A stretch of DNA of 43,068 nucleotides from Methanomicrobiales archaeon (GTDB lineage: Archaea > Halobacteriota > Methanomicrobia > Methanomicrobiales > Methanoculleaceae), in NCBI GenBank assembly GCA_012521035.1, contig JAAYND010000135.1, forward strand, positions 1-43,068, in the 5' to 3' direction. A program made the translations under genes and the position numbers. The notes beneath the pieces are model-generated. The model was not told the origin of the DNA. It ran no database searches and saw only the letters and a program-made list of their open reading frames with translations. Within the stretch, counting starts at the first letter, position 1; every line of letters starts with the position of its first letter. Below, in pieces: positions 117 through 41,685 of this stretch.

Positions 117-189
117 AGCCTCAGCCGAGATTTGAACTCGGGACCTGGTGATTACAAGTCACCCGCTCTGCCAGCTGAGCCACTGAGGC
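117..189 (-). tRNA. tRNA-Thr (anticodon TGT)
   Basis: Reverse complement GCCTCAGTGGCTCAGCTGGCAGAGCGGGTGACTTGTAATCACCAGGTCCCGAGTTCAAATCTCGGCTGAGGCT folds as a cloverleaf. Anticodon arm is GGTGA-CT TGT AA-TCACC and the T-loop is GTTCAAA. No intron; CCA not encoded. Confidence 0.97.
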
Positions 190-11995: not shown

Positions 11996-12067
11996 TGCGC
12001 CGGCCGGGACTCGAACCCGGGTTTAGGCGTTGGCAACGCCTAGTGATAACCACTACACTATCGGCGC
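11996..12067 (-). tRNA. tRNA-Gly (anticodon GCC)
   Basis: Reverse complement GCGCCGATAGTGTAGTGGTTATCACTAGGCGTTGCCAACGCCTAAACCCGGGTTCGAGTCCCGGCCGGCGCA. Anticodon arm is AGGCG-TT GCC AA-CGCCT and the T-loop is GTTCGA. Confidence 0.97.
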
Positions 12068-38412: not shown

Positions 38413-38871
38413 ATGTTCAAAACGGTACTTGTAGCGGTGGATGGGTCTGAGATCGGTCACCGGGCGCTTGAAGAGGCACTGGATCTCGCCAGCGCCATGC
38501 AGGCTTCCGCGCATGCCGTGCATGTCGTCCAGACCGGCGTATACCCGACAATGATACTCAATAATCTCGAGCCCCCTGACATCGCCCAGCAGGCGGTTCT
38601 CGATTCACTCGAGCGCGAGGCCGACGAGATCCTTGCTGATACCGAGCGCCGGGCTGCCGCCACCGGCCTCACGATAACCCCACACAAGCGCCGGGGTCAC
38701 CCCGGGGCGGAGATCATCGCACTGGCGCAGGAACTCGGCGCCGACCTGACTGTTGTCGGATCGCACGGCAGGGGCCGGCTCGACCGCTTCTTCCTCGGGA
38801 GCGTCAGTTCCTATGTCGTCGATCACGCGATATCGACAGTCATGGTTGTCAGGGCAACCCTGACCGAATGA
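38413..38871 (+). CDS. Universal stress protein (UspA family)
   Basis: 'FKTVLVAVDGS', 'G.PG.EII' and 'VVGSHGRG....FLGSVS..V' motifs. Confidence 0.93.
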   Translation: MFKTVLVAVDGSEIGHRALEEALDLASAMQASAHAVHVVQTGVYPTMILNNLEPPDIAQQAVLDSLEREADEILADTERRAAATGLTITPHKRRGHPGAEIIALAQELGADLTVVGSHGRGRLDRFFLGSVSSYVVDHAISTVMVVRATLTE

Positions 38872-39412
38872 GTCCACGAGCAATGAGACGGGCCACCCTG
38901 ACGGGTTCGGGCACCCGGCCTTCGTACGTGACGTCGTTACAGAGCCTCCTGGCATCTTCAGGGGGGATGCCATAGGGGCGGATGAAGAGGTCGTATCCTG
39001 TGTGGAGCCGTATGGAAATCCGGTCACCGAGCCGCTGGTATGCCGCGAGTCTCCGGGTATCGCCGGGGAAGTGGCGGATTATATCCTCTGCGAGCCCCTC
39101 TGACTCCTCATAGGTGGTGACGATGACGGGAAGTCCGGTCGCATCCTGCACCACCACTGGATCGATGATGTTGTACCAGGCGATGACACTCCCGCTGATC
39201 ATCATGAGGTTGATGTCCCGGCGTCCGAGTCTATTAAAGAGCCTGATTATAGCATCGGTTGCATCCGACCCCCCGACCGTCACCCGGGCGAAAGCCACCC
39301 CATCGATCAGGAGATCCTTTCGCATAACAACACCGGCGATTGTGGACTCTTCCCGCCCCGAATAGCTCTCTGCGATGCCAAGGATGCGGAGCCCCGGTTT
39401 GGCTATGTGCAT
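38849..39412 (-). CDS. DUF99 family protein (endonuclease V-like / endonuclease dU)
   Basis: 'RILGIAES', 'VGG.DATD', 'G..IAWYNIID' and 'PEP.RVA' motifs. Confidence 0.85.
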   Translation of the reverse strand: MHIAKPGLRILGIAESYSGREESTIAGVVMRKDLLIDGVAFARVTVGGSDATDAIIRLFNRLGRRDINLMMISGSVIAWYNIIDPVVVQDATGLPVIVTTYEESEGLAEDIIRHFPGDTRRLAAYQRLGDRISIRLHTGYDLFIRPYGIPPEDARRLCNDVTYEGRVPEPVRVARLIARGLIRSGLP

Positions 39413-39452
39413 ACAAAGCCCTTATACCACCAGATCGAATAATAGTATACCG

Positions 39453-39680
39453 GTCAACTACCCCTCCCTGAAGGGAGGGGCTTGTGAACGGCTAAACAGG
39501 ACAAAACAGTTAGACTAGGAGGCAAGAAATTGCAGCAGCGTTTTGGGCTACAAGAACGGATGGGTGTTTCCCTAGCCTGTCCCTCTTCTGGGCACGCCGA
39601 ACCCGACGTACCTTTTGGTACTAAGCCTGTTTCGCAACTCCGAAGGGAAATGTTACCCCGGTTTGACCGGGTGGAAGGAA
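39453..39680 (+). ncRNA. omegaRNA / HEARO-like scaffold for IsrB
   Basis: GTCAACT (39453-59) pairs with AGTT-A-GAC (39508-15). There is an 8-bp hairpin at 39461-80 and a stem GGATGGG/CCTGTCC whose loop TTTCCCTAG can pair with CTAGG (39515-19) or AGGGAAA (39644-50). Further hairpins GTACC-TTTT-GGTAC (39608-21) and CCCGGT-TTG-ACCGGG (39657-71). Lies directly upstream of a PLMP-domain ORF. Confidence 0.82.
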
Positions 39681-39684
39681 TACC

Positions 39685-40731
39685 ATGAGAGTTCCAGTTC
39701 TGGATACTCATAGAAGACCGTTGATGCCGACGACGCCAAAACGTGCTCGTTTACTCCTCAAGCAGGGGAAAGCACGACCGTATTGGAACAAACTTGGCAT
39801 CTTCTGCATCATCCTGATGTATGACGTACAACCTGATAACCAGCAGCTGGTTGTCGGGATCGACCCGGGTAGTTCGTTTGAGGGCTGGTCTGTGGTCGGT
39901 ACTAAAGAGACCGCCTTGAACGGCATGTCTGAGGCACCAAAGCATGTAACAAATGCAGTAGAAACACGAAGGACGATGCGGCGTGCCAGGAGACACCGGA
40001 AGTGTTGGCGTCGTCCGGCCCGATTCAACAACCGGTTGAGTGACCGGAAATTTATACCTCCGAGCACGTTTGCCCGGTGGAACGCGAAGATCCGAATCAT
40101 TGAACAGTTACAGAAGATCCTGCCGATCACGGATGTGGTTGTCGAGGATGTTGCAGCAGTCTCGAAAAAGAACTGTCGCCGGTGGAACAAGAACTTCTCT
40201 CCGCTGGAGGTGGGGAAAAGATGGTTCTATACTGCGATCCGGGCACTTGGTCTTGACCTCTATCTTCGCACAGGATACGAGACCAAAGAACTCCGGGACC
40301 GGTTTGGTTTGAAGAAATCCAGCCAGAAGGACAAGAAGACATTCTCCTCTCATGCTGTTGATGCGTGGGTAATGGCCGCCGACATCTCCGGTGCAGAACA
40401 CCCCCCCGAGATCGGTCTGTACTACTGGACTCCGATCCGTGTACATCGCAGGCAATTGCACCGGTTCCAACCAGAGAAGGGAGGAATCAGAAAACCGTAT
40501 GGAGGAACGCGGTCGATGGGACTGACACGAGGAACACTGGTTCACCATATTAAGTATGGACTGACCTATATCGGGGGTACCTTGAAAAACCGCGTATCCC
40601 TGCATAGTTATGGCACCGGAAAGCGGGTGACACAAAATGCCAGAATCGAGGATTGTACAATCCAGACCAGAATCGCGTGGAGAACAGAATGGTATGCCGG
40701 GACAGGCAGACGGCATTCCTCTCCGGCTTGA
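39685..40731 (+). CDS. isrB: IsrB-type OMEGA RNA-guided nickase (RRXRR/PLMP, split RuvC, no HNH)
   Basis: PLMP at aa 12-15; RuvC-I GID60PG; Arg-rich bridge helix RRTMRRARRHR; RuvC-II VVE154D; RuvC-III SH223AVD226A. Only about 70 aa separate RuvC-II and III, with no HNH/Zn motif. 348 aa; RBS GGAAGGA. Confidence 0.9.
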   Translation: MRVPVLDTHRRPLMPTTPKRARLLLKQGKARPYWNKLGIFCIILMYDVQPDNQQLVVGIDPGSSFEGWSVVGTKETALNGMSEAPKHVTNAVETRRTMRRARRHRKCWRRPARFNNRLSDRKFIPPSTFARWNAKIRIIEQLQKILPITDVVVEDVAAVSKKNCRRWNKNFSPLEVGKRWFYTAIRALGLDLYLRTGYETKELRDRFGLKKSSQKDKKTFSSHAVDAWVMAADISGAEHPPEIGLYYWTPIRVHRRQLHRFQPEKGGIRKPYGGTRSMGLTRGTLVHHIKYGLTYIGGTLKNRVSLHSYGTGKRVTQNARIEDCTIQTRIAWRTEWYAGTGRRHSSPA

Positions 40732-40752
40732 AGGCCGGGGTCTCCTGCCTAT

Positions 40753-41685
40753 ATGAAGATGAAGATCGAGCGAGGTGAGGTATGTATCTTTATCCCTACG
40801 TTAAACGAAGCCCCGACGATCGGTGACCTGGTCAGGGAGTTTCAGGATCGGGGTTTTGAACACATCCTCGTCATGGACGGGAACAGCACCGATGGCACCC
40901 CGGATATCGCACGGGCCGCGGGGGCGACTGTCCGGACGCAGACCGGGAGGGGGAAGGGCAACGCCATCATCGAGGCCGTGAGGATTATCGACAGGCCATA
41001 TGTGCTTATGCTCGACGGTGATGGCACCTACGCCCCTGATGATGCTGAAGCGATGCTCGATCCGCTCGCCCTCGGGTTTGATCACGTCATAGGCAACCGC
41101 CTGGTCAACCCGGATGCGGAGGCGTTCACGCGGCTCAACCTTCTTGGAAACCAGATCCTCAACCTGACATTCAAGATCGCCCACGGGCGAGATCTCCGCG
41201 ATATCCTCTCCGGTTACCGTGCCTTTACCCTCCACTCGATCAGGCAGATGACCCTCAAAGAGGCGGGATTTGAGATCGAGACGGAGATGGCGGTCGAGGC
41301 GGTGAGGAACGGGCAGCATATCACAGTCGTCCCGATCCGGTATCTCTCAAGACCGGGCACGGTCACCAAACTCGATCCCTTCCAGGACGGCGTGAGGATC
41401 TTCTCGACCATATACCGCCTCGCAAAGATGAACAACCCGATCTTTTATTTCGGGATAATCGGGCTATTCATATCGCTCCTGGGAGGAGCCACCGGTGTAT
41501 ACGTTGTTTATGAGTGGCTCAGGAATATCGAGCATCTGCCGCTCACCATCCTCACGGTCCTCCTGATCACCATAGGGTTTCAGATCTTCATGTTCGGCGT
41601 TATCAGCGATATGCTGCTTGCGTTTCACCGTGAGACGACCCGCCAGATCGAGCAGTTACAGCGCCCGCCCGAACCTCCCCGATAG
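40753..41685 (+). CDS. aglJ: GT2 dolichol-phosphate glycosyltransferase, AglJ-like (S-layer N-glycosylation)
   Basis: IPTLNE..TIG, DGNSTDGT, GKG.A, DGDGTY, D.LSGYRA and GFEIETE motifs, plus two C-terminal TM helices. Start at 40753 or 40759. Confidence 0.85.
   Translation: MKMKIERGEVCIFIPTLNEAPTIGDLVREFQDRGFEHILVMDGNSTDGTPDIARAAGATVRTQTGRGKGNAIIEAVRIIDRPYVLMLDGDGTYAPDDAEAMLDPLALGFDHVIGNRLVNPDAEAFTRLNLLGNQILNLTFKIAHGRDLRDILSGYRAFTLHSIRQMTLKEAGFEIETEMAVEAVRNGQHITVVPIRYLSRPGTVTKLDPFQDGVRIFSTIYRLAKMNNPIFYFGIIGLFISLLGGATGVYVVYEWLRNIEHLPLTILTVLLITIGFQIFMFGVISDMLLAFHRETTRQIEQLQRPPEPPR

What the first reader, a model, noticed from the sequence alone, without database searches (positions are those of the whole stretch)
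39413..40764. Element inserted exactly at the aglJ start codon, so ATGA would serve as the TAM
Seen: the left flank is the 40-bp divergent intergenic region of the DUF99 gene (...GAATAATAGTATACCG). The right end runs straight into ATGAAGATGAAGATC, the start of aglJ. Established: in IscB/IsrB elements the guide comes from the left flank and the TAM from the right flank, and NTGA-type TAMs have been reported for IsrB. Inference: the empty allele reads ...AATAGTATACCG|ATGAAG..., so the RNP would nick element-free copies of the aglJ promoter/start junction. That could promote homing or retention in a polyploid methanogen. An ATGA preference would bias insertions to translation starts without breaking ORFs.
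Basis: partly seen in the sequence, partly recalled or inferred. Interest (0 to 1): 0.75.

Follow-up and report, generated by a model that had tools for sequence, protein, structure and literature searches.

The report
IsrB transposon parked on start codons
A small mobile element carrying an RNA-guided DNA-nicking gene sits exactly in front of the start codon of a methanogen's sugar-transferase gene; its relatives nearly always land before the letters ATGA and often survive at gene starts, likely because copies that break genes are lost.

Summary
Real, with a 6-nt boundary error. The element is a 1,306-bp non-autonomous IS200/IS605-type (ISC1) unit, 39453-40758: HEARO-like omega-RNA plus an intact-looking isrB. 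Twenty-eight empty aglJ alleles join the left flank to the second ATG (40759). The first ATGAAG is the element's own end. Across related copies, 94 of 96 distinct sites are followed by ATGA (70 ATGAA), the N|ATGA target already described for ISC1 elements. At least 25 of those 94 are gene starts (aglJ, lysS, metK, carA, argF), against 5.5% of ATGA sites. Gene-breaking positions fall to 11 of 94 from 48.5%. Against only harmless sites the excess is absent to modest (p=0.26 strict; p=0.003 classifier), so purifying selection explains most of it. The nicking/homing claim is doubtful at this locus. A TATA box conserved in 28 of 28 empty alleles predicts a leaderless aglJ, so its promoter would start at the junction and give almost no guide. 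The TAM-end hairpin is also decayed. A low-divergence tract shared with a sister species hints weakly at recombinational transfer (2 of 81 control starts match). Verdict: new member of a known kind, with a start-codon pattern my searches did not find in print.

The parts
38849..39412 (-). Host endonuclease dU / DUF99 gene, divergent neighbour
   Evidence: PF01949 200 bits; same position in 28 of 28 empty aglJ loci
39413..39452 (.). 40-bp host intergenic region, the left flank; its last 20 nt (39433-39452) would be the guide if transcribed from further upstream
   Evidence: two of 28 empty alleles differ by one base over these 20 nt
39414..39427 (+). Predicted aglJ promoter: BRE-like purine run, then CTTAT TATA box at -32 from the junction; predicted leaderless start at the junction
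   Evidence: CTTAT at -30 to -33 in 28 of 28 empty alleles, SD-like motif in 0 of 28; G000 TATA-like peak at -34..-28 before ATG; haloarchaeal TATA centre -27/-28 (PMC2151090 passages)
39453..40758 (+). IsrB insertion element, 1,306 bp, no target duplication, no own transposase
39453..39684 (+). Omega-RNA scaffold region
   Evidence: HEARO RF02033 model position 1 falls on 39453, 62.1 bits, E 3e-12, below gathering 83; 12 of 64 predicted pairs with compensatory change in 14 copies
39461..39480 (.). Subterminal hairpin at the omega end (IS right end; GTCAA reads TTGAC on the minus strand); perfect 8-bp stem
   Evidence: DNA fold; both-side changes in 5 of 8 pairs
39685..40731 (+). isrB, 348 aa: PLMP, RuvC-I D60, bridge helix, RuvC-II E154, RuvC-III H223/D226, no HNH
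   Evidence: PF14239; best PDB match DtIsrB 8dmb E 1e-53 over residues 2-298 without an HNH-sized gap; motifs invariant in 9 of 9 aligned copies
40721..40740 (.). Subterminal hairpin at the TAM end (IS left end), two mismatches against the commonest variant; isrB stop lies in its loop
   Evidence: -5.3 kcal/mol versus -11.0 for the perfect variant; 25th of 31 variants by stability
40753..40758 (+).
   Evidence: shared end ATATGAAG in copies at unrelated sites
40759..40763 (+). Target motif ATGAA (TTCAT on the minus strand), which is the aglJ start codon and the putative TAM
40759..41685 (+). aglJ, S-layer glycoprotein N-glycosyltransferase, intact 308 aa
   Evidence: TIGR04182 465 bits, cut-off 325

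Best explanation
This is a non-autonomous IsrB-carrying IS200/IS605-type element that sits immediately before the ATGA of the aglJ start codon, likely inserted there by a Y1 transposase acting in trans, and it likely persists because an insertion at that point leaves the gene whole. Shown: boundaries, empty allele, family-wide ATGA(A) target, many copies at starts and few inside genes. Inferred: (1) target choice is by the TTCAT motif on the minus strand only; (2) most insertions hit genes and are purged, so survivors pile up at start codons, ATGA stop/start overlaps and intergenic sites; (3) at aglJ the host promoter now drives one transcript, omega-RNA to isrB to aglJ, so the essential-type genes seen downstream of other copies (lysS, metK) stay expressed; (4) because the aglJ promoter is predicted leaderless, this copy would make an almost guide-less omega-RNA and is probably a passive resident, not an active homing element, unless read-through from further upstream supplies a guide.
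For: ATGA at 94 of 96 sites. Starts: 25 of 94 by homology versus 5.5% background, p=3e-11; versus 3 in-frame internal Met sites, p=2e-13 (inputs). Out-of-frame or antisense coding positions: 11 of 94 versus 48.5%, p=6e-14. The strict start count matches the harmless-site expectation of 21.6%, p=0.26. Where coding runs into a left end it is sense in 8 and antisense in 1 of 36 left-end sites; 27 had none. This fits the orientation bias in bioRxiv 10.1101/2023.03.14.532601 section 5. TATA conserved 28 of 28, no SD 0 of 28. TAM-end hairpin decayed, with different changes in G000 and G021. RNA-library contigs in X13 and X16 bridge the element-aglJ junction (DNA carry-over not excluded). G000 holds one intact Y1 tnpA whose element has a very similar left-end hairpin.
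Against: The same-classifier test leaves an excess of in-frame coding starts over harmless sites: 37 of 94 versus 25%, p=0.003. Four start codons were hit by two different element subfamilies, more than a large neutral pool suggests. Flank divergence from G021 dips near both junctions, and only 2 of 81 gene starts are as conserved on both sides. isrB and the omega scaffold look intact. No transcription start was mapped. The background comes from my own gene caller on one 87%-complete genome, while the sites come from many assemblies, some mobile or misjoined. No TTCAT lies directly before that tnpA element's hairpin, so the transposase is not shown to be cognate.
Confidence: 0.68

Rival explanations
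1. Active retention or homing at aglJ: read-through from upstream, for example from the usp gene across the DUF99 gene, supplies a 20-nt guide; IsrB nicks element-free alleles 8-11 nt before ATGA and recombination copies the element in, including between sister species.
For: RuvC motifs and scaffold intact. Two empty alleles are within one mismatch of the guide and keep ATGAA. Same insertion in G000 and G021, 2 of 48 genomes, with only 2 differences in the 150 nt left of the junction against a mean of 14.6. No joined empty form in 4 of 4 DNA runs laid.
Against: Predicted start site at the junction. TAM-end hairpin decayed, so excision and empty sites should be rare. The divergence dip is only p about 0.025 against gene-start controls and was noticed after the fact. 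Shared ancestry plus a conserved double promoter can give it. Retention was shown for the double-strand cutters TnpB and IscB; the passages I read give IsrB nicking only.
Confidence: 0.2
2. True targeting of starts: the transposase prefers ATGA sites at translation or transcription starts (melted or accessible single-stranded DNA), so the bias exists before selection.
For: Residual excess over harmless sites, p=0.003. Four start codons reused by different subfamilies. 34 of 36 left ends close the frame of a split stop codon after five codons.
Against: Strict homology count shows no excess, p=0.26. 46 of 94 sites show no coding frame and 11 break genes. Leaderless-type TATA spacing occurs in 2 of 36 left flanks versus 58 of 658 ATGA starts, so there is no pull to transcription starts. 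Element ends carry no SD-like motif, 0 of 26 variants.
Confidence: 0.1
3. Assembly artefact: a repeat was stitched between the two host genes.
For: Metagenome assemblies can misjoin repeats; one left flank is found with two different right flanks in G033-type loci.
Against: Single contigs bridge the left junction in runs X2, X3 and X11 and the right junction in X2 and X5, with 0-6 differences. A second genome, G021, has both junctions.
Confidence: 0.02

Closest known systems
ISC1 transposons with N|ATGA targets, e.g. ISC1-1_MA of Microcystis (PMC4810608; passages and section 9 read, supplements not seen)
   Same: HNH-less Cas9 homolog, 5'-GT terminus, subterminal hairpins, insertion directly before ATGA, no target duplication, non-autonomous
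   Different: Host is a methanogen (the paper's archaeal entries are ISC2 with GT|GA sites); fifth-base preference for A; 'start codon' occurs 0 times in that main text
DtIsrB OMEGA nickase, PDB 8dmb (PMC9581776; passages and sections 7-8 read)
   Same: PLMP-RuvC-bridge-helix layout, about 350 aa, upstream omega-RNA; DtIsrB nicks ATGA and TTGA substrates
   Different: TAM here is inferred from flanks only. Alignment stops at residue 298, so the TAM-reading R323/Q326 could not be mapped; an RVTQ motif with Q317 invariant in 9 of 9 copies has the same spacing. Scaffold region is about 232 nt versus roughly 300.
ISGst5 IscB element of Geobacillus (bioRxiv 10.1101/2023.03.14.532601; passages and section 5 read)
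   Same: Same five-base motif (TTCAT, i.e. ATGAA on the gene strand); guide lies outside the element and needs a host promoter; sense-orientation bias
   Different: IscB has HNH and cuts both strands, and its retention role was tested; that work reports orientation bias, and no start-codon enrichment appeared in the parts I read
Rfam HEARO RNA, RF02033
   Same: Full-length model match starting on the element's first base
   Different: 62.1 bits, below the 83-bit gathering score; partner lacks HNH

Membership tests
IsrB (OMEGA nickase) | N-terminal PLMP domain and split RuvC with bridge helix | tested here: met
   PF14239 145 bits; 8dmb alignment; D60, E154, H223, D226 invariant in 9 of 9
IsrB (OMEGA nickase) | No HNH domain, about 350 aa | tested here: met
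   348 aa; continuous alignment to DtIsrB 2-298, IscB matches cover mainly the N-terminal part; IscB HMM 130 bits, below cut-off 175
IsrB (OMEGA nickase) | Structured omega-RNA scaffold upstream of the ORF, starting at the element end | tested here: met
   HEARO E 3e-12 from 39453, below gathering score; covariation in 14 copies
IsrB (OMEGA nickase) | TAM-reading residues equivalent to DtIsrB R323/Q326 | tested here: inconclusive
   alignment does not reach the TI domain
IsrB (OMEGA nickase) | Guide- and TAM-dependent nicking | not testable with these tools
   needs reconstitution
IsrB (OMEGA nickase) | Omega-RNA made with a flank-derived 5' guide at this locus | tested here: inconclusive
   promoter spacing predicts 0-3 nt; RNA runs are contigs and cannot show starts
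ISC1 / IS200-IS605 non-autonomous element | Fixed target motif on one side only, no target duplication | tested here: met
   94 of 96 ATGA; no conserved base in 36 left flanks; empty alleles
ISC1 / IS200-IS605 non-autonomous element | Subterminal hairpins at both ends | tested here: met
   the TAM-end hairpin of this copy is partly decayed
ISC1 / IS200-IS605 non-autonomous element | Dispersed, polymorphic copies | tested here: met
   protein matches in 10 of 48 genus genomes; one copy found in G000, 87% complete
ISC1 / IS200-IS605 non-autonomous element | Cognate Y1 transposase available in trans | tested here: inconclusive
   PF01797 in 12 of 48 genomes including G000, G006, G033; similar hairpin but no adjacent TTCAT

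The most novel reading that the evidence does not exclude
The ATGA target of this IsrB family is an evolved gene-safe strategy. It lands the element on start codons and ATGA stop/start overlaps, captures the host promoter that the omega-RNA needs, and repairs a split stop codon five codons into its own left end. Where a leader or operon supplies a guide, the nickase drives homing, with the aglJ copy crossing between sister species and leaving a co-conversion tract.
Probability: 0.2. Interest if true: 0.65.

Novelty: new member of a known kind. Interest (0 to 1): 0.38.

Why it matters
It gives a native target motif (ATGA, mostly ATGAA) for a methanogen IsrB family from 96 natural sites. It also shows that such elements end up wedged between promoters and start codons of housekeeping genes, rewiring how those genes are transcribed and translated. 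Leaderless sites such as aglJ (predicted guide-less) and operon-internal sites such as birA or argF (guide available) form a natural pair for testing an open point: whether a nickase-only OMEGA protein promotes retention of its element at all.

Tried and rejected
First ATG (40753) as aglJ start, or ATGAAG as a target duplication: rejected. Of 191 right-end matches, 3 were dropped as too short; the rest collapsed to 96 sites, and the 2 non-ATGA sites were left out of the start-codon tests. Pfam was run on the 64 of 96 junction ORFs of 40 or more codons and NCBIfam on 26 of them. One of the 25 homology starts (L217) rests only on a conserved ATG in the G000 ortholog; several others map within about 12 codons of the homolog start. 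Rfam at gathering threshold missed the omega-RNA. The bacterial sigma-70 scan is not informative for an archaeon. Mapping DtIsrB TAM residues failed. RNA runs were contigs only: no start, strand or level, and poor cover of the left junction is no evidence. The X17 joint has 19 differences in 158 bases, so it is a relative's empty allele, not splicing or excision. An element-supplied SD: none in 26 end variants. Other targets of the guide in G000: no match of the last 10 or 12 flank bases plus ATGA. The co-conversion dip looked strong with hand-picked windows (0.7% and 2.5% of windows) and weakened with fixed windows and gene-start controls. Earlier scan notes: none found. Literature searches that found no report of start-codon enrichment. 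The 2021 Science OMEGA paper was not read, and no supplements were seen.

Full report
What is there. The window holds a 348-aa ORF at 39685-40731. It matches RRXRR PF14239 and, best among solved structures, DtIsrB (8dmb, E 1e-53, residues 2-298 with no HNH-sized gap). The PLMP motif and RuvC residues D60, E154, H223 and D226 are invariant in 9 of 9 aligned copies. Upstream, the Rfam HEARO model aligns full length from exactly 39453 (62.1 bits, E 3e-12, below the gathering score of 83). Fourteen copies give 64 predicted pairs, 12 with compensatory changes. The neighbours are an endonuclease dU/DUF99 gene, divergent, starting at 39412, and aglJ (TIGR04182 above cut-off). Related loci carry Methanoculleus and Methanomicrobiales record titles.

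Boundaries. Of 30 aglJ loci examined, 28 are element-free, one is the window and one (G021) has the same insertion. In the closest empty alleles the left flank ending ATACCG runs straight into a single ATGAAG, equivalent to 40759. BLAST breaks at 39452 and resumes at 40758/9, and a diverged contig in run X17 skips exactly 1,306 bases. Copies of this subfamily at unrelated sites end in ATATGAAG. The element is therefore 39453-40758, the ATG at 40753 belongs to it, and nothing is duplicated. Contigs in independent DNA runs bridge both junctions, and none of 4 runs shows the empty form. Among 48 genus genomes only G000 and G021 continue across the left junction.

Target motif. G000 has one detectable copy, so I collected ends from relatives and public contigs. 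191 right-end matches, less 3 too short, gave 96 distinct sites: 94 ATGA (70 ATGAA, 15 ATGAC, 5 ATGAG, 4 ATGAT) and 2 others. My rule looked for ATG 7-12 nt after the end motif, but fixed spacers, empty alleles and the fourth base confirm the junction independently. The 36 distinct left flanks show no conserved base. On the minus strand this is the IS200/IS605 layout: TTCAT, hairpin, body, hairpin, TTGAC. N|ATGA targets with 5'-GT termini were described for ISC1-1_MA and others (PMC4810608, passages and section 9). TTCAT is the motif of the ISGst5 IscB element (bioRxiv 10.1101/2023.03.14.532601, passages). DtIsrB nicks ATGA and TTGA substrates 8-11 nt before the TAM (PMC9581776, section 7). 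An ATGA TAM for this protein is thus likely but unmeasured.

Start codons. With my own gene calls on G000 (2,088 genes), 3.6% of 23,051 ATGA sites are at or near starts, or 5.5% weighted by fifth base. Among 94 insertion sites, 25 map to the N-terminus of a homolog or family model, including birA, cobN, argF, purN, lysS, metK, carA and gpi (p=3e-11). Three are in-frame internal Met codons. A classifier applied equally to insertions and background found 37 in-frame coding, 11 out-of-frame or antisense, and 46 with no coding frame, against 20.6%, 48.5% and 30.9%. So ATGA by itself would not favour starts; gene-breaking sites are missing. Against harmless sites only, the strict count is unremarkable (25 of 94 versus 21.6%, p=0.26) and the classifier count is modestly high (37 of 94 versus 25%, p=0.003). 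Four starts were used by two different subfamilies. Coding that runs into a left end is sense in 8 and antisense in 1 of 36 sites, as expected from the published orientation bias (section 5). Purifying selection plus that bias is the simplest account; a small true preference is not excluded. Limits: one incomplete genome as background, mixed assemblies as sample, and kin that are not independent.

Does this copy nick its empty allele? The guide must be transcribed from outside the element. CTTAT lies 30-33 nt before the ATG in 28 of 28 empty alleles, none has an SD-like motif, and the window has it at -32. G000 shows a TATA-like peak at -34 to -28 before ATG, and haloarchaeal TATA boxes centre at -27/-28 (PMC2151090, passages). 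aglJ is therefore predicted leaderless, and its promoter would now start at the element's first bases, giving scaffold without a usable guide. A guide would need read-through from further upstream, across the antisense DUF99 gene, which I could not test. The TAM-end hairpin has two mismatches (-5.3 versus -11.0 kcal/mol), which should reduce excision. In favour of activity: intact motifs; two relatives within one mismatch of the 20-nt flank; and low divergence from G021 around both junctions (2 differences in 150 nt left, 5 right, mean 14.6). But 2 of 81 ordinary gene starts are as conserved at 100 nt, and 2 of 79 at 150 nt, so this is a hint only. G000 has one intact Y1 tnpA with a similar left-end hairpin but no adjacent TTCAT. 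RNA-library contigs in X13 and X16 bridge the element-aglJ junction, which fits co-transcription but does not prove it. Polyploidy is recalled for other methanogens and was not tested.

Mechanism, committed. Trans-acting Y1 transposition before ATGA(A) (inferred); loss of disruptive copies (inferred from the depletion shown); capture of the host promoter with downstream gene expression kept (inferred); this copy mostly passive (predicted). Confidence 0.68. Active homing at aglJ 0.2; true start targeting 0.1; artefact 0.02.

Novelty. The element meets the sequence-level features of IsrB and ISC1, and its target type is known. The start-codon enrichment did not appear in the papers found, nor in the passages read (0 mentions of 'start codon' in PMC4810608 and in the review PMC13565253). 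The 2021 Science OMEGA paper and all supplements were not seen and may bear on this. ATGA stop/start overlaps are known (PMC6728339, search listing and abstract start only). Verdict: new member of a known kind, with a quantifiable and apparently undescribed site pattern of mostly ordinary cause. Interest 0.38.

Noticed in passing
window 39453-39471 and 36 left-end sites: In 34 of 36 left ends the frame that continues a host ORF whose TGA stop lies in the ATGA target closes after five codons, using the hairpin loop; other frames run 10 to over 30 codons. Sites L180 and L247 are such stop/start overlaps in G000. May be a by-product of the conserved loop.
   Followed up: partly
L100/L107 (birA), L065/L088 (oxidoreductase), L091/L079 (argF), L044/L191 (cheF-like): The same start codon is occupied by two different element subfamilies in different assemblies, suggesting a limited pool of tolerated or favoured sites.
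   Followed up: partly
window 39270-39452 and 40759-40892 versus G021 (L255, L002): Divergence dips next to both junctions while host genes differ by 7-10%; the 40-bp intergenic region is identical. Possible co-conversion tract, p about 0.025 against gene starts.
   Followed up: yes
window 40395-40405: Five clustered differences in isrB separate the window from most laid contigs of runs X2, X3, X5, X11, X13, X16 and X17, while L115 encodes a window-like peptide there; possibly a patch converted from another copy.
   Followed up: no
L091/L041 and L105/L252 (upstream of argF): The left junction lies 14 nt upstream of the argF start at a second ATGAA, and the same left flank appears with two right flanks: small deletion, recombination between copies, or misassembly.
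   Followed up: no
L133 and L169: Two insertions 5 nt apart at neighbouring ATGA motifs in the same flank.
   Followed up: no
L104, L113, L125, L137, L179, L044: Internally deleted derivatives (414-612 bp where both ends were measured) keep the ends and the ATGA target.
   Followed up: no
G000:C300:11788-13086 (L233); G000:C156 and C259 ends: An IS605-like tnpA plus downstream ORF with a left-end hairpin resembling the isrB element's, and two contig-end right-end hairpins of related elements.
   Followed up: partly
L265-L267: The same left end occurs in three places on two viral contigs, a possible transfer route.
   Followed up: no
window 117-189 and 11996-12067, minus strand: Two tRNA genes.
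   Followed up: no
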